Below, one piece after another: positions 41,568 through 63,376 of a DNA stretch of 64,000 nt. Below the pieces are notes generated by a model that made no database searches, was not told the origin of the DNA, and was given only the letters and a program-made list of their open reading frames with translations. The number at the start of each line of letters is the position of its first letter. Positions within the stretch are counted from its first letter, which is position 1. Origin of the DNA: a virus; IMG/VR virus record IMGVR_UViG_3300031652_000001, one strand, 5' to 3'. The position numbers and the translations under genes were made by a program.

Positions 41568-42575
41568 TTAGGATATACACACCGAAAATAGAGGAACCTT
41601 GCTATCCTTGTCAGTGATTACTTGTCCACCAAGCATAGGAACCTTTTCCGTCTTTGGCAAAACCACTGTCCTAAGCCTCATACCGCTTTCCTCATCCTCA
41701 CAAGGGGACAATCTCAAAGGATGTGCCCTGAGTGCCGACAATAGCCCCTCAGTAGCTGTATAGAGCTTTGCCTTACTCTCCAATAAGACGTCATGTATCG
41801 CCTTGAGAGTTCGTTCTCTTGGCTGCAATGGCTCCCTTGACGAATCCGGAAACATGGGTAGCCTATCCTTGTTCTGCTGATAGCAGGCCCTTGCCAACGA
41901 CCCGTAACAGACACGAATCAGTGGGTACCAGATAGACCGCCAATAGGCCCTTGTTGGCGAAAGCTCAACTCCCGCCACTTTACCTTCAAGCAAGACAACT
42001 GCCCCAACCTGATTATCAAGAAGCTCAAACTCCGCAACGAACTCATCCATTTGCTTCTTGAATGTATTCACAAAAACAGCAAGCTGCTGATGATTTGAAA
42101 GACCGTGTCGAGAATTGAACTCACCCAGCTCACCCCAGATCAGATTGTATCCTTGCTCCTTACGCTTTGCCAAAGCAATGCTTCTGAGTTCTGCCGGTAA
42201 AATCAACATCTCTGTTGCACTCTTGATATATCCACCCTGGCTAGACTGAATACATCTTGCCGTCCTGATTATGGACTCAGAACCACCCTTCATAATCTTG
42301 CCGCTACCAACAGCGTGATCCTGAGCTGCCTGCTCAACAACCCAACCGGCCCCAGGAGGAACAAAGTTCGTCCGACCAGATCTCTCTCGGATATGAACCG
42401 TTCCATAATTGGAGGTCCTTACCTCAAAATCATCAGCCGTACCAAAATCGCTCTCATCAAAACGATCATTATCGGAAACCAATGGTATCACCCCCATATT
42501 TCCGACATACTGAGCCTCACCAGAGGAAACCCCGTCCAGGATGTCCCCCATTGTCAATGTCCGTCTCCTATTCAT
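41568..42575 (-). CDS. ARPP-like (DUF6569-related) protein
   Basis: NYG.V, QDHA, A.CIQ..QGG, IW, F...FE...Q.GA...G...G.E..P...YW...W..L...CY; coupled (ATGA) to the vWA gene. Confidence 0.6.
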   Translation of the reverse strand: MNRRRTLTMGDILDGVSSGEAQYVGNMGVIPLVSDNDRFDESDFGTADDFEVRTSNYGTVHIRERSGRTNFVPPGAGWVVEQAAQDHAVGSGKIMKGGSESIIRTARCIQSSQGGYIKSATEMLILPAELRSIALAKRKEQGYNLIWGELGEFNSRHGLSNHQQLAVFVNTFKKQMDEFVAEFELLDNQVGAVVLLEGKVAGVELSPTRAYWRSIWYPLIRVCYGSLARACYQQNKDRLPMFPDSSREPLQPRERTLKAIHDVLLESKAKLYTATEGLLSALRAHPLRLSPCEDEESGMRLRTVVLPKTEKVPMLGGQVITDKDSKVPLFSVCIS

Positions 42576-44209
42576 GACTCACCTCCTAGTAAGCCTGAAA
42601 AGCCCTCACCTCCTGCCGTAAGCGCTATCCGAACCAGATTCTCAATACCCTGTCTCGGGTCACTCTCGATGAGACCTCGAACCATGGTAGTGCCGATCAA
42701 TTCAGGAGACTTGACCGGCATTGTTACAACCTTGTCGATACCATCACAGATCGAACGTACAGCTCCAGTCTCAGCCGCAAAAACAGGATTGAAATGAATA
42801 ATTGGTGTGTCATTCCCATATTCCCTCGCAAGCCTGAGAACATCACCTGTCCGTCCAGCTGGAGCATTCTCATATCCATCACTGATAATGAAAATTGCTT
42901 CAGGCTCATCCATCATCAAAAAGAGAAGTCGCTCAGCAAGATCAGTAGAACCCTTCGGTCTCGTCAATGTTGCTTTGTCTCCCTCATATGTCCCACCACA
43001 CACCAACACAGATGCGGACTCGGCAGATGCAACCAAAGCATCTCTTAACGATAACGCAACAGCCATCGGCCTGAGAGGTTGCTCCCGGCTTCCTTCCATA
43101 GACTTCGAAGCGTCCAATAGGATGCCAATCCTATTATATGAAAAAGGCAACGTCGTTGCCGTTTTCTTCGCTTTCCTTGTAAGGGCGTCCTGGACAATAC
43201 CGGTCATGCCGTTCTCAAAAGCATGAATGTACAGCTCTACCGAACTGTAATCATCAACCCTCATTTCGACATCAACACCCGCTTCCTTTGCCCTCTTCTG
43301 AACAACTCTCCTTTCATGAGTTGTCATCGTTTTCGACTTCGCCTTTATCCTGATAATATCACCAGGCTTCGTATTTTGATGATATGTGCTTCTGATGCCC
43401 TCCAACACTTCAGTCGGAAGAATCGATCCCGCCTTGAGATCTTTCTTAGAACAAACAAAAGCATTCAACATTTTCATCTCTTTATAAAAACCATCACGTT
43501 TTCCAAAAAGAAAAGCCAAACACTGACAAACTCGAACTCTTTTGTTGTGAACATCTGTGTCGCCGATAATATATCGGAAAACGTGATCCCGCAGAGCACC
43601 TCTATCTATCCTGCTCATCTTGCTGAACTTCGGATATTGCTTTACAGCCTCACCAATAAAAGAAGCCAATTTCTGGCCCCACGCATGAACCAGTGCTCCC
43701 TTCACCTTGTCACGATACTTCACAACCCAAAGCTCAAACCTCGGACTATTCAATATCGTCTTGAGTATCAACTTCCTGGTACGAGCATTGTTTGAACGCT
43801 TGATACCAAAATGACCCCCACGACCCCGAAGCGCGTCGAACATCTTTAAAAGCCGCTGAGGTGGCATTTCCCGAACGAATTTCTCCAAAATATGACGTTC
43901 TATTTTGGGATCCAAAAACACATCGGCGCCCCGTGGGTTTGCCAATAATGTCGATATACCCAGTTGTCGAGAATGGTCTGTTGTACCCGGCAAAAGAAGC
44001 AACGTCTCATACAGATCTCGACACCTCCGAAATAACTCTGCATGAGCATGGATTTCCGAACTTACCTGCTGTTCCCTCGTATTGTAATGCGTAGAACGAC
44101 CGTACGATGTAGTACAGACATCCAAGAACGACAAGACATGAGGAGCCAGATCTTCCGGCCTCAGGTGCTCAACCCGAAAAATGTCCTCCAATAGTGCAAG
44201 GTTCCCCAT
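42572..44209 (-). CDS. Ro60/TROVE-like helical domain + vWA protein
   Basis: Basic helical N-terminal ~350 aa, then MIDAS LLDASKSM...T...IISDGYEN; directly downstream of Y-RNA-like elements. Confidence 0.65.
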   Translation of the reverse strand: MGNLALLEDIFRVEHLRPEDLAPHVLSFLDVCTTSYGRSTHYNTREQQVSSEIHAHAELFRRCRDLYETLLLLPGTTDHSRQLGISTLLANPRGADVFLDPKIERHILEKFVREMPPQRLLKMFDALRGRGGHFGIKRSNNARTRKLILKTILNSPRFELWVVKYRDKVKGALVHAWGQKLASFIGEAVKQYPKFSKMSRIDRGALRDHVFRYIIGDTDVHNKRVRVCQCLAFLFGKRDGFYKEMKMLNAFVCSKKDLKAGSILPTEVLEGIRSTYHQNTKPGDIIRIKAKSKTMTTHERRVVQKRAKEAGVDVEMRVDDYSSVELYIHAFENGMTGIVQDALTRKAKKTATTLPFSYNRIGILLDASKSMEGSREQPLRPMAVALSLRDALVASAESASVLVCGGTYEGDKATLTRPKGSTDLAERLLFLMMDEPEAIFIISDGYENAPAGRTGDVLRLAREYGNDTPIIHFNPVFAAETGAVRSICDGIDKVVTMPVKSPELIGTTMVRGLIESDPRQGIENLVRIALTAGGEGFSGLLGGES

Positions 44210-44250: not shown

Positions 44251-44318
44251 AGACTGAGAAAATTCGTCAAATGTCTTTAGTAGTCCTCCACTGTAACATC
44301 TGATTCAGTCCTCAATCT
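44251..44318 (-). ncRNA. Y-RNA-like hairpin RNA 1 (no tRNA module)
   Basis: AGATTGAG/CTCAGTCT terminal stem, GAGGACT motif, inner stem TCAGATG/CATTTGA. Confidence 0.65.
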
Positions 44319-44333
44319 GTGTATTATATAAAA

Positions 44334-44459
44334 GACCGAGATTTTTTAACAAACGGAGTTGGATAGAAATACGGGAATTGAACCCGTTACCGTTGGTTTA
44401 GAAGACCAATGCTCTAACCAGATGAGCTGATTTCTGAACCGTCTATTGAGTCCTCGGTC
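44334..44459 (-). ncRNA. Y-RNA-like RNA 2 with embedded tRNA-Arg(TCT)-like cloverleaf (44365-44435)
   Basis: GACCGAG/CTCGGTC terminal stem, GAGGACT motif, inner stem AATAGACGG/CCGTTTGTT, then D, anticodon and T arms. Confidence 0.75.
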
Positions 44460-44476
44460 ATTTTTTCAAAGAAAAT

Positions 44477-44603
44477 AGGCGAGATTATTTAAGAAACAGT
44501 GTGTGTAAAGAAAAACCGGATTCGAACCAGTAACTCTCAGCTCCCAATGCTGAAGCTCTACCAATGAGCTTTTTTCCCTGAACTGTCTCAACAGTCCTCG
44601 CCT
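44477..44603 (-). ncRNA. Y-RNA-like RNA 3 with embedded tRNA-Pro(TGG)-like cloverleaf (44508-44578)
   Basis: AGGCGAG/CTCGCCT terminal stem, GAGGACT motif, inner stem GAGACAGT/ACTGTTTC, then D, anticodon and T arms. Confidence 0.75.
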
Positions 44604-44613
44604 TGCAAGAATT

Positions 44614-44643
44614 AATCTAACCCAATTTTCTGGAAGGTGTCAA
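44614..44643 (-). promoter_or_regulatory. Sigma70-like promoter of the Y-RNA-like/vWA/ARPP operon
   Basis: TTGACA-N18-TAGATT ending about 10 nt before RNA 3. Confidence 0.6.
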
Positions 44644-45092: not shown

Positions 45093-46502
45093 TCAAGACC
45101 AGCCACCTTCACGATAACAACAAAAGCTTGTTCCATAAGCATCACAATAACTGTCAAGATCCGAATAGTGTTCACCACCAGCGGAATAACAATCATTGGC
45201 ATAAAGACATGCCATCGAAAATTTCAAAGTACACGCATCAGGAACAATTTCCTCTGTTTCACTGTCACTGGTATCCGTTTCAGTCTCTTCTTCCGTATCC
45301 TCAATCGTTTCAGAATCAATATCCGTATCGTATTCAGTATCTTGCTCTGTTTCAGTATCCACCTCCGTATCAACAGGCAATTTCATAACAGCACAACATA
45401 ACCTTCCTTCTAATTCACCCCTACATACCCCCTCGGCTGTAACAAATCCCCACTCTGGATCTGGATAAGGAACATCCTCACATTTTTCCTTATCCAAAGA
45501 CAAACTTGGATGCATACAGAAATTACAATTCGGCTCTGTATCGCTATCAGTATCAAAGTCCGTGTCGGTGTCGGTGTCGGTGTCCGTATCAGTGTCCGTG
45601 TCAGTATCGGTATCGGTATCGGTGTCGGTGTCGGTGTCCGTGTCCGTATCTGTGTCCGTGTCAGTATCGGTATCGGTATCGGTGTCGGTGTCGGTGTCCG
45701 TGTCCGTATCTGTGTCCGTGTCCGTGTCCGTGTCGGTATCGGTATCGATATCAACATCCATACTACCTGAATCCTCACCAGCATCCAGATCTATTCCGGT
45801 ATCCCCATCTGTACCAACATCTTCTTCCGAGCCTGTGTCTGTATCAACGCTGTCATTGGTATCGGTATCAGTATCGGTATCGGTATCAGTATCAGTATCG
45901 GTATCGGTATCGGTATCGGTATCGGTGTCGGTGTCGGTGTCCGAGTCCGAGTCCGTATCTGTGTCCGTGTCCGTGTCCGTGTCGCTGTCAGCATTACCGT
46001 CTGCATCAGTGTCTGTGTCCATATCACTATCCGCATCAGAATCACCATCCCCATCCCCATCGGCATCCCCATCGGCATCGGCATCGGCATCGGCATCGGC
46101 ATCGGCATCCATATTCATATCCGTGTCAGTGTCCGCATCGGCATCAGTGTCCGCATCGGCATCAGTGTCCGCATCGGCATCCGCATCGGCATCGGCATCG
46201 GCATCGGCATCGGCATAGGTATCCGCACCACCATCAATACCGGCATCAAAATCACTGTCCGTATCGATATCTGTATCAAACTCAAAATCAAAAGAATCTG
46301 TCTCAGATTCAGAGCCTTCTACCCGGATATCCGTTCCAGTATCTATCGAATCTATATCGCAAATCATCCTATTTATAGCACTTGAAGAATCATCTTCCTC
46401 GGTACCAAAAAAAGATGCATCACCGGCATCCAGCTCATCCCCATTGTCCTCTAAACAGGCCACCAAAAAAATAGCAACCAAAACAAAAAATGTCGTCCTC
46501 AT
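45093..46502 (-). CDS. Lipoprotein with long Asp-Thr/Asp-Ala repeats and Cys-rich C-terminal domains
   Basis: Signal peptide with lipobox LVAC (Cys16); (DT)n and (DA)n tracts. Confidence 0.8.
45540..46215. repeat. Degenerate hexamer tandem repeats (GTRTCN / GCATCG) encoding DT/DA
   Basis: Visible directly; includes a 60-bp duplication around 45580-45720. Confidence 0.9.
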
Positions 46503-46585
46503 ATCTTCCTCCTTATACCTAATGATAAGGATTTATAACATGAACGCAAGTTCACTTTCTCAAAAAATAACAAAAAATAGATTTA

Positions 46586-46656
46586 TGGCCCCTCCGGGGT
46601 TCGAACCCGGGCCAACGGCTTATGAGACCGACGCTCTACCAATGAGCTAAAGGGCC
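46586..46656 (-). tRNA. tRNA-Ile2/Met (CAT)
   Basis: GGCCCTT acceptor like bacterial Ile2; loop CTCATAA; no encoded CCA. Confidence 0.85.
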
Positions 46657-46660
46657 TCGT

Positions 46661-47023
46661 TTAATCCTCATAGGCAAGATCCATCCATTCATCCCATAGA
46701 TTCCTCAACATACTGACACCTTTTTTGGTAAAGTATGCAAAATAAGAAACCCCCTCCCAGTCGGAATCACGGACTTTTTCGACATATCCCTTCTGTCTCA
46801 AAATATGAGCCTCATTTGGCGTCAAATATCTCTTAGAAAGACCTTTCTTTGATGCCACAGGAATACCATCCTCAGCCTTATCATAGACATCATTTGCTTT
46901 TACAAGCGCATCAAAAAACGGGTATCTTTTCTTGAAAGCGGACCGACGCTTATCCTCAGCCGCATCCTCAGTTAGTTTTTCTTTGGCTTTCTCAAGTACA
47001 GTATTTATTTCACCAAGATGCAT
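46661..47023 (-). CDS. Hypothetical protein with leader INTVLEKAKEKLTE
   Basis: Start MHLGE with GGAGGT RBS. Confidence 0.65.
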   Translation of the reverse strand: MHLGEINTVLEKAKEKLTEDAAEDKRRSAFKKRYPFFDALVKANDVYDKAEDGIPVASKKGLSKRYLTPNEAHILRQKGYVEKVRDSDWEGVSYFAYFTKKGVSMLRNLWDEWMDLAYED

Positions 47024-47283: not shown

Positions 47284-47287
47284 ATTG

Positions 47288-47363
47288 TACGCGAGGGGGG
47301 ACTCGAACCCCCAACCTCCAGATCCTTAGTCTGACGCCTCGTTCCAAATTGGGCTACTCGCGC
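47288..47363 (-). tRNA. tRNA-Leu (AAG), short variable loop
   Basis: Cloverleaf, loop CTAAGGA, V loop AGGTT, A73. Confidence 0.85.
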
Positions 47364-47369
47364 ATGTTG

Positions 47370-47444
47370 TACACCGGAAGGGAGTCGAACCCTCACTGTC
47401 AGGATCCTGAGTCCTGTGCCTCTTCCAGATTGGGCTACCGGCGC
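47370..47444 (-). tRNA. tRNA-Leu (CAG), short variable loop
   Basis: Cloverleaf, loop CTCAGGA, V loop ACAGT, A73. Confidence 0.85.
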
Positions 47445-48310: not shown

Positions 48311-48367
48311 TGCCTCCTTGGTTCAATCTTACCCACAAAGTAGACACCGTCAACAAATCGTTTATTG

Positions 48368-48442
48368 TGCGACCACTGGGATTCGAACCCAGAACTCTGT
48401 GATCTTAAATCACATGCCTCTACCAAATTGGGCCACAGTCGC
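48368..48442 (-). tRNA. tRNA-Leu (TAA), short variable loop
   Basis: Cloverleaf, loop TTTAAGA. Confidence 0.85.
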
Positions 48443-48462
48443 ATTGTTGTATTTCTATTTTC

Positions 48463-48538
48463 CAGGGGCATATGGAGTCGAACCCCCAACAACAGATACT
48501 ACTGGAAGCCTGCGCTCTACCATTTAAGCTATACCCCT
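48463..48538 (-). pseudogene. Degenerate tRNA-Trp (CCA)
   Basis: AGGGGTA acceptor and D arm intact; enlarged anticodon loop; T-stem GGGGG/CCATA mispaired. Confidence 0.65.
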
Positions 48539-61863: not shown

Positions 61864-61878
61864 AATCACCACCTCTTG

Positions 61879-61952
61879 TCGGGACGAGAGGATTTGAACC
61901 TCCGACATCCGGTTCCCAAAACCGGCGCGCTACCAAACTGCGCTACGTCCCG
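61879..61952 (-). tRNA. tRNA-Pro (TGG)
   Basis: Cloverleaf, C1-G72, loop TTTGGGA. Confidence 0.92.
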
Positions 61953-62656: not shown

Positions 62657-62824
62657 TGGGCCAAGCAGGATTCGAACCTGCACAGATGCTCTGATGTTGG
62701 TATTCCCTGGTACGCGACTGTCCACCGATAGAATACCCATTTTCCAGTCAGCTTCAACACGCATCGATTCAGCATCTTATCCAACACGTCACCAGTTAGC
62801 GTCTACCTTTTCCGCCATTGGCCC
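62657..62824 (-). ncRNA. 168-nt tRNA-like RNA with a large structured insert
   Basis: GGGCCAA/TTGGCCC-A acceptor, Leu-like D arm, perfect T arm; ~115 nt replace the anticodon and V arms. Confidence 0.75.
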
Positions 62825-62974: not shown

Positions 62975-62990
62975 TTACCACCTCATTTTG

Positions 62991-63376
62991 AGGACACGCC
63001 GGGAATCGAACCCGGGTCCGAATATCGTCATCGGCATGAATCTTCCACATGCTTGGTCTGTCAATATACCCTCATCTCAATGGCAACAGACAACCATCGA
63101 AATATTCGTTTCTGGAATATCGCTTTCGCTCGCCACTACTTACGACGTCACTGCATGCATCCCAGAAAATACAGCAGCTATCCTGTTGAAAATGACGCCC
63201 TTATGCCTACACAGGCACTCGACAATCGGACGGCTCAAGCAGCTATTTCAAACTGTTGAACAGGTGTGTTGTCTCTTTTGGCAACTGTTTTTGAGCATTC
63301 TTTTTAACCCGCTGAATACACAAAGCGGGACATGCTCCACACGGAATCATGATACCCGTCGAATCCAATCGTGCCC
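62991..63376 (-). ncRNA. ssrA: tmRNA; tag (A)AKRDNTPVQQFEIAA at 63235-63282
   Basis: GGGCACG...GGATTCGAC 5' end, G3:U70, GGAC-CCGGG-TTCGATT-CCCGG 3' end, resume context CAGTT-GCC, tag ending in AA. Confidence 0.93.

What the first reader, a model, noticed from the sequence alone, without database searches (positions are those of the whole stretch)
44334..44603. Complete, non-permuted tRNA cloverleaves with real anticodons caged inside the Y-like stems
Seen: RNA 2 carries D arm, anticodon arm (CT-TCT-AA, Arg) and T arm; RNA 3 carries the same with AT-TGG-GA (Pro). Both are in normal D-AC-T order, have A/U-rich acceptor stems, lack a free CCA end, and connect to the Ro-type stem through the acceptor ends. 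From memory, described YrlA tRNA mimics are permuted, with the Ro stem at the anticodon position, so this topology looks different. Inference: unchargeable anticodon-displaying decoys or sensors for host anticodon nucleases or tRNA-modifying toxins, or stored tRNAs released by processing.
Basis: partly seen in the sequence, partly recalled or inferred. Interest (0 to 1): 0.8.

Follow-up and report, generated by a model that had tools for sequence, protein, structure and literature searches.

The report
tRNA mimics on Ro60-type RNA handles
Two small phage RNAs each carry a complete tRNA look-alike on a conserved stem that most likely docks onto a very diverged Ro60-type ring protein encoded next door, so they look like a new, widespread wiring of the known Ro60/Y-RNA particle and not like working tRNAs.

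Summary
On the minus strand, 44334-44459 and 44477-44603 each hold a full cloverleaf in normal D-anticodon-T order (Rfam tRNA 57.1 and 54.7 bits; ARAGORN Arg-UCU and Pro-UGG). Each cloverleaf is joined through its acceptor ends to a two-part outer stem.

This architecture recurs upstream of homologues of the next gene in about two thirds of some 130 phage and bacterial loci (87 full-length matches). All 12 outer-stem pairs show compensatory changes.

The next gene (42572-44209) has no Pfam TROVE hit but folds as a full-length Ro60 (Z 17.5). It is almost always followed by an ARPP-1 gene, and the ARPP protein is predicted to dock on the Ro-like vWA MIDAS face.

The modules are mimics, not decoders:
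- The anticodon is not conserved. The two nearest relatives carry UGA and UUG in place of UGG, and an 8-nt loop and UGC in place of UCU.
- Only 13 of 86 acceptors are fully paired.
- Both window copies lack U8.
- A circularly permuted version with a closed acceptor exists in the same family.

Function is inferred: a generic tRNA-shaped adaptor on a Ro60-like/ARPP particle linked to tRNA arrays. The decoy idea is not excluded.

This scan has found the same module before in other genomes. I found no paper describing it.

The parts
44614..44643 (-). Promoter-like site (TTGACA, 18 nt, TAGATT) just upstream of RNA3
   Evidence: Consensus scan, 10 of 12 matches. This is a pattern match only. It is conserved in the nearest relative L148.
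44477..44603 (-). RNA3, a Y-like unit with a Pro-UGG-type cloverleaf. Outer stem S1 is 44603-44597 with 44483-44477. The conserved GACU is at 44596-44593. Inner stem S2 is 44587-44583 with 44499-44495. The junction UUCAG is at 44582-44578.
   Evidence: Minimum-energy fold. Covariance model 116.6 bits, full length. Sequence read.
44507..44578 (-). tRNA-like module of RNA3. The acceptor is 7 bp with two G-U pairs. Position 8 is A. The anticodon loop is 44548-44542 with UGG at 44546-44544. Positions 72 and 73 are both U.
   Evidence: Rfam tRNA 54.7 bits. ARAGORN calls Pro tgg.
44334..44459 (-). RNA2, a Y-like unit with an Arg-UCU-type cloverleaf. S1 is 44459-44453 with 44340-44334. GACU is at 44452-44449. 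S2 is 44443-44439 with 44356-44352. The junction UUCAG is at 44438-44434.
   Evidence: Minimum-energy fold, z = -3.26. Covariance model 122.4 bits, full length.
44363..44436 (-). tRNA-like module of RNA2. It has a C1:A72 mismatch and C8. The anticodon loop is 44404-44398 with UCU at 44402-44400. Position 73 is U, followed by an internal CCA at 44362-44360.
   Evidence: Rfam tRNA 57.1 bits. ARAGORN calls Arg tct.
44251..44318 (-). RNA1, the same kind of handle (S1, GACU, S2, ACAG junction) carrying only a small hairpin and no tRNA module, followed by a run of U.
   Evidence: Fold. Tandem partners without cargo or with small cargo occur in related loci. RNA1 itself did not reach the covariance model's threshold in the window.
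42572..44209 (-). Ro60-like protein of 545 aa, made of a helical-repeat ring plus a vWA domain with a MIDAS motif (D366, S368, S370).
   Evidence: No Pfam, PHROG or NCBIfam family. AlphaFold2 model with pLDDT 82. Foldseek top 11 hits are all Ro60/TROVE. VIA-align Z 17.5 with 411-420 residues aligned over 23-517.
41568..42575 (-). ARPP-1 family protein of 335 aa. Its start overlaps the stop of the Ro-like gene.
   Evidence: Pfam PF20208, E = 5e-22. It lies directly downstream of the Ro-like gene in 128 of 147 loci. Predicted to dock on the vWA MIDAS face.

Best explanation
RNA2 and RNA3 are the RNA subunits of a diverged Ro60/Y-RNA-type particle.

Shown:
- Each RNA consists of a conserved handle and a complete, non-permuted tRNA-shaped module joined to the handle through its acceptor ends. 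The handle is a 7-bp terminal stem closing on CGAG, an internal loop that begins with RACU, a second stem and a UUCAG junction.
- This architecture is conserved and covaries across phages and bacteria.
- It always lies just upstream of a gene pair encoding a protein with the Ro60 fold and an ARPP-1 protein.

Inferred:
- The handle docks on the Ro60-like ring, as Y-RNA stems dock on Ro60.
- ARPP sits on the vWA MIDAS face.
- The tRNA module is a generic tRNA mimic that is kept for its L-shape and its canonical anticodon-loop geometry, not for decoding.
- The module tethers the particle to something that recognises tRNA shape, or presents tRNA shape to it. Candidates are a tRNA-processing or repair enzyme, a nuclease, or ARPP itself.
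- The purpose is surveillance or handling of tRNAs made from the tRNA arrays in which the operon often sits.

The modules are not working tRNAs.
For: Architecture and conservation:
- There are 87 full-length covariance-model matches at 63-128 bits, nearly all within about 1.7 kb upstream of the Ro-like gene (two lie downstream). Plain tRNAs match only the core, at 59 bits or less.
- 96.3% of pair cells are paired, against 37-43% when partners are slid. All 7 S1 pairs and all 5 S2 pairs show changes on both sides.
- The 8 nt after S1 are 46% U against 28% overall. This fits discrete RNA units.

Protein partners:
- The Ro-like protein has a Ro60 fold: Foldseek E = 7e-7, and Z 17.5 over 411-420 residues.
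- ARPP follows in 128 of 147 loci. Most of the remaining loci are cut off too short to show it.
- The complex prediction supports binding but does not show it. The score is 0.66 and the best of 3 controls is 0.00. That mark was reached by 58 of 80 solved complexes and 2 of 110 mismatched pairs, and these counts hold only roughly because my own alignments were used. The runs agree in at least 84% of contacts and the partner's pLDDT is at least 82. The interface includes MIDAS residues 368-370 and 446-453.

Mimic, not decoder:
- In 86 distinct members the anticodon loop is 7 nt in 82. Among those 82, U33 occurs in 63, a purine at position 37 in 78 and A38 in 67.
- Positions 34-36 are near-uniform, with 36 different triplets. 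Three read stop codons, 12 have A34, and 24 are Ser or Leu anticodons on short variable loops.
- Among close pairs the anticodon differs at 0.35 per site, against 0.038 per site outside the loop.
- In the window's own clade the RNA3 unit carries UGG, UGA or UUG. The RNA2 unit carries UCU, an 8-nt loop, or UGC with U37. The handles are invariant, while four-fold sites differ by 0.125-0.207.
- Only 13 of 86 acceptors pair at all 7 positions.
- Read against the published E. coli identity sets (my knowledge): RNA3 has U72 and U73 where tRNA-Pro needs G72 and A73, and RNA2 has U20 and U73 where tRNA-Arg needs A20 and A/G73.
- The phage already has a canonical tRNA-Pro(UGG) at 61878-61952.
- A permuted sibling with a closed acceptor hairpin keeps the anticodon arm (L011:2085-2208).

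Context:
- 51 of 148 loci have 3 or more tRNA calls and 15 have 10 or more.
- Minicystis rosea has 20 tRNA calls in 5.5 kb around the operon.
Against: - No RNA data exist. Transcription, RNA ends and protein binding are all unverified.
- The handle motif is close to the published Ro-binding motif but not the same. The protein has no sequence-level TROVE match, so binding in the Ro60 manner is argued only by analogy.
- The partner that would recognise the tRNA shape is unknown. ARPP has no structural relative that would point to a chemistry.
- Internal NCCA-like sequence after the acceptor is enriched: CCA at positions 74-76 in 18 of 86 members and A73 in 54 of 86. Together with 7-bp acceptors in some phage copies, this would also fit processing that frees a tRNA-like end.
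- The covariation counts come from an alignment fitted to the model, which favours the structure.
Confidence: 0.6

Rival explanations
1. Anticodon-displaying decoy or sensor. The modules offer anticodon loops as bait for anticodon nucleases or tRNA-modifying toxins. Cleavage or modification of the bait on the Ro-like/ARPP particle would soak up the toxin or trigger a response. The anticodon changes quickly because the target changes.
For: - The anticodon arm is kept with canonical loop geometry even in the permuted sibling. YrlA, by contrast, has no anticodon loop.
- Triplets change at or above the neutral rate. In the window's clade there are 8 events in 14 loop sites against about 3.4 expected from four-fold sites.
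- In the phage trio L011/L024/L070, one loop differs at 4-5 of 7 sites while four-fold divergence is only 0.067-0.097 and the other 131 nt differ at 0-1 sites.
- Loci often carry two modules with different anticodons.
Against: - The excess over neutral is small and was picked out after the fact. In Planctomycetota the loop changes at about the neutral rate of 0.31-0.44. Loss of constraint therefore explains most of the pattern.
- Many loops would be poor copies of any real tRNA: A33 or C33 in 19 of 82, stop-reading triplets, A34, and 6-, 8- and 11-nt loops.
- A second module in the same phage trio keeps its loop unchanged.
- No nuclease or toxin gene is linked to the operon.
Confidence: 0.15
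2. Processing handle. The tRNA shape is there to be cut. RNase P, and a 3' activity stopping at the internal NCCA, nick the RNA at the acceptor. This would give a two-piece Y-like RNA or a tRNA-like end carrying CCA, as reported for M. smegmatis YrlA.
For: - M. smegmatis YrlA, which has a 7-bp acceptor, is cleaved by RNase P and receives CCA.
- CCA at positions 74-76 occurs in 18 of 86 members, and in 14 of the 42 with at least 6 of 7 acceptor pairs. A73 occurs in 54 of 86.
- RNA2 in the window has U-CCA directly after its acceptor.
Against: - Most members have imperfect acceptors, 5 of 7 pairs or fewer in 44 of 86. The Planctomycetota versions have two central mismatches and no CCA.
- The permuted sibling has a closed acceptor.
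- The 5' leader is only 2-3 nt and abuts a helix.
Confidence: 0.12
3. Stored or caged functional tRNAs (Arg-UCU and Pro-UGG) that are released from the stems by normal tRNA maturation and then decode.
For: - Rfam scores of 55-57 bits and ARAGORN calls are the same as for real tRNAs.
- The acceptors are 6-7 bp and RNA2 carries an encoded CCA.
- No other Arg-UCU gene is present in this 64-kb window.
Against: - The anticodon is not conserved in the nearest relatives, and one relative has an 8-nt loop.
- Both window copies lack U8, RNA2 has a C1:A72 mismatch, and the identity elements expected for ProRS and ArgRS are missing (sequence; identity sets from my knowledge).
- The phage has a canonical tRNA-Pro(UGG).
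- Across the family, acceptors are degenerate and Ser/Leu anticodons sit on class I bodies.
Confidence: 0.06
4. Ordinary tRNA genes whose flanks happen to pair, for example through leftover repeats or terminators, with no link to the neighbouring protein.
For: The units lie at the edge of a large phage tRNA cluster, with 17 tRNA calls and a tmRNA in the window. Each unit ends in a stem followed by a run of U.
Against: - All 12 outer-stem pairs show compensatory changes across 86 distinct sequences.
- Synteny with the Ro-like/ARPP pair is fixed in phages, Myxococcota and Planctomycetota.
- Handles are invariant while four-fold sites diverge by 12-21%.
- The other tRNAs of the window have no such handle.
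Confidence: 0.02

Closest known systems
YrlA Y RNAs of bacterial and phage Ro60 (Rsr) systems (Salmonella, M. smegmatis, mycobacteriophages; Chen et al. 2014, PMC4201824; structure 6CU1, bioRxiv 10.1101/312249)
   Same: - A small RNA encoded beside a Ro60-fold protein.
- A terminal stem with a conserved 5'-strand motif, plus a module with tRNA-type D and T arms and elbow.
- Often paired with a second, simpler Y-like RNA (YrlB there, RNA1 here).
   Different: - YrlA resembles a circularly permuted tRNA. Its acceptor is a closed hairpin, the Ro stem takes the place of the anticodon stem, and there is no anticodon loop. Here the order is the normal D-anticodon-T, the handle joins at the acceptor ends, and a full 5-bp/7-nt anticodon arm is present.
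- The handle reads CGAG-RACU, not GNCGAAN0-1G.
- The protein has no TROVE sequence match.
- The operon partner is ARPP, not RtcB/RtcA.
Deinococcus radiodurans Yrn1 (Rsr-Yrn1-PNPase, RYPER)
   Same: The T-like and D-like elements lie in the non-permuted orientation relative to the RNA ends, with an anticodon-like arm between them. The effector module tethers Ro60 to another enzyme, which is the functional analogy used here.
   Different: Yrn1 has no full D arm, a 6-nt loop on its anticodon-like arm and no variable arm. The modules here are complete cloverleaves that pass Rfam's tRNA threshold with room to spare. No PNPase link has been shown here.
Thermus phage phiLo Ro60 with Yrl1 and Yrl2 (PDB 9KOP and 9L5Y; PMC12135203)
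   Same: A phage-encoded Ro60-fold protein with two Y-like RNAs encoded just upstream of the gene. It is a structural neighbour of the window's protein (Z 15.7-16.0).
   Different: The phiLo RNAs were found through the CGAA motif and are not described as cloverleaves. No ARPP partner is described in the passages I read.
Other embedded tRNA mimics (tmRNA; viral 3' tRNA-like structures)
   Same: A tRNA shape built into a larger RNA and used for recognition by tRNA-binding factors.
   Different: Those have a free CCA end and are aminoacylated. Here the ends run on into a handle, and the predicted identity elements are missing.

Membership tests
Functional (decoding) tRNA | Cloverleaf that passes a tRNA covariance model | tested here: met
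   Rfam RF00005 gives 57.1 and 54.7 bits against a gathering score of 29. ARAGORN calls both.
Functional (decoding) tRNA | Anticodon conserved among orthologous copies | tested here: not met
   In the window and its two nearest relatives the copies carry UGG, UGA or UUG, and UCU, an 8-nt loop or UGC. The family has 36 different triplets in 82 loops.
Functional (decoding) tRNA | Fully paired 7-bp acceptor, U8, and synthetase identity elements matching the anticodon | tested here: not met
   RNA2 has C1:A72, C8, U20 and U73. RNA3 has A8, U72 and U73 (sequence; identity sets from my knowledge). Across the family, 7 of 7 pairs occur in only 13 of 86 members.
Functional (decoding) tRNA | Free, chargeable 3' CCA end after processing | not testable with these tools
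   This needs end mapping and aminoacylation assays. In the DNA the 3' side runs on into the handle.
YrlA-type Y RNA | Encoded next to a Ro60 orthologue | tested here: met
   The units lie directly upstream of a protein with a full-length Ro60 fold. The same synteny holds in related loci.
YrlA-type Y RNA | tRNA-like domain with a closed acceptor hairpin and the Ro stem at the anticodon position (permuted, no anticodon loop) | tested here: not met
   In both window units the order is normal, the acceptor is open and a full anticodon arm is present.
YrlA-type Y RNA | Conserved 5'-strand motif GNCGAAN0-1G in the Ro-binding stem | tested here: inconclusive
   The family consensus is CGAG followed by RACU. 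This is similar but not identical. No Rfam family other than tRNA matched at E up to 10.
Yrn1-type Y RNA | Non-permuted order with an anticodon-like arm between D-like and T-like elements | tested here: met
   compared with the description. The modules here are more complete: a full D arm, a 7-nt loop and a 5-nt variable loop.
Ro60/TROVE protein (for the neighbouring gene) | Ring of helical repeats followed by a vWA domain with MIDAS | tested here: met
   Z 17.5 to Xenopus Ro60 over residues 23-517. D366, S368 and S370 are invariant.
Ro60/TROVE protein (for the neighbouring gene) | Sequence match to the TROVE family profile | tested here: not met
   No Pfam hit at E up to 0.01. A profile of 34 homologues finds no Ro60 chain in the PDB by sequence.
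Ro60/Y-RNA particle | Direct binding of the RNA stem to the protein | not testable with these tools
   This needs EMSA, immunoprecipitation or a structure.

The most novel reading that the evidence does not exclude
The modules are programmable baits. A Ro60-like/ARPP particle displays anticodon loops that are under diversifying selection to match whichever tRNA a host or rival anticodon nuclease attacks. The particle would so detect, absorb or repair that attack. This would make it a new class of RNA-based counter-defence or defence, carried by phages and by tRNA-array islands in bacteria.
Probability: 0.15. Interest if true: 0.9.

Novelty: new variant of a known kind. Interest (0 to 1): 0.66.

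Why it matters
What the tRNA-like domain of bacterial Y RNAs does is still an open question. This family offers a natural comparison set:
- The same handle carries a complete cloverleaf, a permuted cloverleaf, two small hairpins or almost nothing.
- The anticodon arm, which YrlA lacks, is kept.
- A new protein partner (ARPP) takes the place of the RtcB/RtcA genes that accompany rsr-yrlBA in the Salmonella operon.

The family also extends the Ro60 lineage well beyond what sequence profiles detect, with more than 550 clusters at 50% identity. It links that lineage to tRNA arrays in phages, Myxococcota and Planctomycetota.

There is a practical consequence. These units pass tRNA detectors, so tRNA counts and codon-usage arguments for large phages and for tRNA-array islands include RNAs that are probably not decoders.

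Tried and rejected
- Sequencing runs: for window:43900-44700 (kind rna), no RNA holder was listed. Expression and RNA ends could therefore not be examined, and read laying was not used.
- The window's own assembly is not held, so searches of the rest of the phage genome for TROVE, RtcB or further units failed.
- A first search of viral contigs with the single protein found nothing. The alignment-based searches succeeded.
- ARPP structure: the model is confident (pLDDT 91), but Foldseek found no PDB match at E up to 0.001. The wide VIA-align search gave no chain above Z 4.3, and those rows cover only the helical hairpin. No chemistry could be assigned beyond the published prediction of a Cys/Gln active site.
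- Only one deposited phage record holds a homologue, the uncultured phage LR756500.1. No cultured phage model is in hand.
- The Annual Review and Microbiology Spectrum reviews on bacterial Y RNAs are not held. My claim that the family is undescribed rests on six full-text searches.
- 'Swappable cassettes' between relatives was considered and rejected as the main mode. Close relatives keep the same anticodon stem and change only loop letters.
- Two weak full-length model matches in the window (46563-46677 and 48335-48473) are ordinary tRNAs without a handle.
Full report
**1. What is there**

The window is part of a large phage genome. It has 17 tRNA calls and a tmRNA, all on the minus strand.
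- Arg(tct) at 44360-44436.
- Pro(tgg) at 44505-44579.

Rfam's tRNA model gives them 57.1 and 54.7 bits against a gathering score of 29. That is the middle of the range for this phage's tRNAs. No other Rfam family matches the region, even at E up to 10.

Folded without constraints, each 136-nt unit gives a cloverleaf in normal D-anticodon-T order. The cloverleaf is enclosed by a 7-8-bp terminal stem (S1), an asymmetric internal loop and a second stem (S2). For RNA2 z = -3.26, and for RNA3 z = -2.15.

A third unit (RNA1, 44251-44318) has the same kind of stems with only a small hairpin inside. A promoter-like site lies just upstream of RNA3. Each unit ends in a stem followed by a run of U.

Details of the two modules:
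- RNA2 has a C1:A72 mismatch and C8. It carries U-CCA in the DNA right after its acceptor.
- RNA3 has A8, two G-U pairs at the top of its acceptor, and U72 and U73.

**2. The neighbouring proteins**

The gene that starts 40 nt after RNA1 (42572-44209, 545 aa) matches no Pfam, PHROG or NCBIfam family. Its C-terminal third has an invariant MIDAS motif.

An AlphaFold2 model built on 34 homologues (pLDDT 82) matches Ro60 structures over its whole length:
- The top 11 Foldseek hits are all Ro60/TROVE entries, with a best E of 7e-7.
- VIA-align gives Z 17.5, rmsd 4.5 and 411 residues aligned over 23-517 to Xenopus Ro60. It gives Z 15.7-16.0 to the Thermus phage phiLo Ro60 and Z 12.4 to Deinococcus Rsr.

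The protein is therefore a structural Ro60 that sequence profiles do not detect. Its family is large, with 553 clusters at 50% identity at E up to 0.001.

The next gene is an ARPP-1 family protein (PF20208). An ARPP gene follows the Ro-like gene in 128 of 147 related loci. Nearly all the exceptions are contigs that end too early to show it.

The 2022 paper that named ARPP lists three other two-gene contexts for it. In the passages I read it mentions neither this one nor TROVE.

A complex prediction supports binding but does not show it:
- The score is 0.66 and the best of 3 controls is 0.00.
- That mark was reached by 58 of 80 solved complexes and 2 of 110 mismatched pairs. These counts hold only roughly because my own alignments were used.
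- The runs agree in at least 84% of contacts, and the partner's pLDDT is at least 82.
- The contact surface covers the MIDAS face of the vWA domain.

**3. The RNA architecture is conserved and covaries**

Alignment-based searches fetched 147 loci encoding the Ro-like protein:
- Viral contigs of 40-435 kb.
- Metagenome contigs.
- Bacterial genomes, including Myxococcota (Minicystis rosea), Planctomycetota (Stieleria, Rhodopirellula, Novipirellula) and Yinghuangia.

ARAGORN finds tRNA-like calls just upstream of the gene in most viral loci. Many have odd anticodons: aca, tta, and 2- or 4-base 'anticodons'. Folding shows the same outer stems there. Genuine G+C-rich tRNAs nearby have none.

I built a covariance model from 18 units (138 positions, 30 pairs). 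It finds 87 full-length matches of 63-128 bits (86 distinct sequences) in about two thirds of the non-redundant loci. Nearly all lie within about 1.7 kb upstream of the gene, and two lie downstream. Ordinary tRNAs match only the core positions, at 59 bits or less.

On the resulting alignment:
- 96.3% of pair cells are standard pairs, against 37-43% when the partners are slid by 1-3 columns.
- No shuffle reaches any of the five measures.
- All 7 pairs of S1 and all 5 pairs of S2 show changes on both sides.

One caveat applies. The alignment was fitted to the model, which favours the structure.

The conserved letters are the closing CGAG/CUCG pairs of S1, RACU at the start of the 5' loop, and U(U/A)CAG between S2 and the acceptor. 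The 8 nt after S1 are 46% U.

**4. Mimic or tRNA?**

The module keeps the general tRNA design. In 86 distinct members:
- U8 is present in 78.
- The variable loop is 5 nt in 76.
- The T loop reads UUCRANU and the D loop holds GG.
- The anticodon loop is 7 nt in 82. Among those 82, 68 have a pyrimidine at 32, 63 have U33, 78 have a purine at 37 and 67 have A38.

Positions 34-36 carry no preference:
- There are 36 different triplets.
- Three read stop codons.
- Twelve have A34.
- Twenty-four are Ser or Leu anticodons on bodies with a short variable loop, which bacterial class II tRNAs do not have.

Acceptors are degenerate. All 7 positions pair in 13 of 86 members, 6 in 29, 5 in 33, and 4 or fewer in 11. 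They are also A/U-rich. The Planctomycetota versions have two central mismatches in the acceptor.

The window's own clade gives the clearest case. In the two nearest relatives (Ro-like protein 91-92% identical, four-fold sites 12.5-20.7% different) the handles are invariant:
- The RNA3 unit carries UGG, UGA or UUG.
- The RNA2 unit carries UCU, an 8-nt loop, or UGC with U37.

Both relatives have U8 where the window has C8 or A8.

Read against the published E. coli identity sets (my knowledge), RNA3 lacks G72 and A73 for ProRS, and RNA2 lacks A20 and A/G73 for ArgRS. The phage also has a canonical tRNA-Pro(UGG) with C1-G72 and A73 at 61878-61952.

Finally, the same family contains a circularly permuted version. 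L011:2085-2208 reads handle, junction, anticodon arm, variable loop, T arm, closed acceptor hairpin, D arm, handle. A closed acceptor cannot give a chargeable tRNA.

Together these points argue that the module is kept for its shape, anticodon arm included, and not for decoding.

**5. How fast does the anticodon change?**

Among 34 close pairs (8% or less divergence outside the loop), the anticodon differs at 0.35 per site, the whole loop at 0.24 and the rest of the RNA at 0.038.

Compared with four-fold sites of the adjacent gene:
- Planctomycetota loops change at about the neutral rate of 0.31-0.44.
- In the phage trio L011/L024/L070, one loop differs at 4-5 of 7 sites. Four-fold divergence there is only 0.067-0.097, and the other 131 nt show 0-1 changes.
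- In the window's clade I count 8 events in 14 loop sites against about 3.4 expected.

The excess is modest, and the cases were picked out after looking. The safe statement is that the triplet is unconstrained. Diversifying selection is possible but not shown.

Relatives keep the anticodon stem and change only loop letters. The changes are therefore local substitutions and not swaps of whole tRNA cassettes.

**6. Comparison with what is known**

It resembles a circularly permuted tRNA with a closed acceptor loop, its Ro-binding stem continues from the anticodon stem, and it lacks the anticodon loop and a free CCA.

The same 2014 paper, however, models Deinococcus Yrn1 in the opposite, non-permuted orientation. 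That model has a 5-bp 'anticodon arm' with a 6-nt loop, no variable arm and an incomplete D arm. The wiring here therefore has a precedent. What is new is the following combination:
- A complete cloverleaf.
- A different handle motif.
- A Ro60 lineage that TROVE profiles miss.
- The ARPP partner.
- The coexistence of several wirings on one handle.

M. smegmatis YrlA is cut by RNase P and receives CCA. That keeps a processing role open for the members here with 7-bp acceptors and internal A-CCA. CCA sits at positions 74-76 in 18 of 86 members.

Six full-text searches found no description of this family. Two key reviews were not available.

Earlier notes of this scan describe the same three-part module in at least 14 other genomes. 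I re-tested their main points here.

**7. Context**

Many loci lie in tRNA arrays. Of 148 loci, 51 have 3 or more tRNA calls and 15 have 10 or more within 5-6.6 kb. Minicystis rosea has 20 calls around the operon. This supports a link with tRNA metabolism, as does the known activation of the rsr-yrlBA-rtcBA operon by damaged tRNAs (abstract).

**8. Verdict**

- The structural interpretation is largely right.
- The functional interpretation remains open. Stored tRNAs are unlikely, a generic tRNA-shaped adaptor is most likely, and a decoy role is the interesting minority reading.
- This is a new variant of a known kind. It is of real interest to people who work on Ro60/Y RNAs and on phage tRNAs.

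Noticed in passing
window 62988-63376 (-): The phage encodes a tmRNA (Rfam 117 bits). ARAGORN reads the tag peptide as AKRDNTPVQQFEIAA.
   Followed up: no
window 62657-62824 (-): A 168-nt match to the whole tRNA model (32.5 bits) that ARAGORN does not call. It is a tRNA-like gene with a long insert, lying beside the tmRNA.
   Followed up: no
window 47287-47444 and 48367-48442 (-): Three tRNA-Leu calls (aag, cag, taa) are only 75-77 nt long, so they lack the long variable arm of bacterial tRNA-Leu. A fourth (caa) is 87 nt. A weak extra Rfam tRNA match at 48463-48538 (31.4 bits) is not called by ARAGORN.
   Followed up: no
window 45093-46502 (-): A 469-aa ORF lies just upstream of the RNA operon. 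It has long acidic dipeptide repeats that match the repeat regions of Sdr/Clf adhesins (NCBIfam E down to 5e-29, far below the family cut-offs).
   Followed up: no
L011:2085-2208 (+): A circularly permuted member on the same handle, in the order junction, anticodon arm, T arm, closed acceptor hairpin, D arm. It sits between two non-permuted units.
   Followed up: partly
L037:1746-1862 and L031:1738-1860 (+): In Planctomycetota the second unit carries two hairpins on the same handle. In L037 both have a 5-bp stem and a 7-nt loop. In L031 the second hairpin is longer. The 3' linker reads ACCAAAGG in L037 and UCCAAAGG in L031.
   Followed up: partly
L025 (Minicystis rosea CP016211.1, 8259884-8265380), L028, L051: In bacterial chromosomes the Ro-like/ARPP operon lies inside dense tRNA arrays, with 14-20 tRNA calls in about 5.5 kb. 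These may be mobile tRNA-array islands.
   Followed up: partly
window 41568-42575 (-): The ARPP model is confident (pLDDT 91) but has no structural neighbour in the PDB above Z 4.3. C108, Q85, H87, Q113, D177 and E184 are invariant in 32 homologues.
   Followed up: partly
window 44323-44352 (-): A second promoter-like site (TTGTTA, 18 nt, TATAAT) overlaps the 3' part of RNA2. It could drive RNA1 and the Ro-like gene separately.
   Followed up: no
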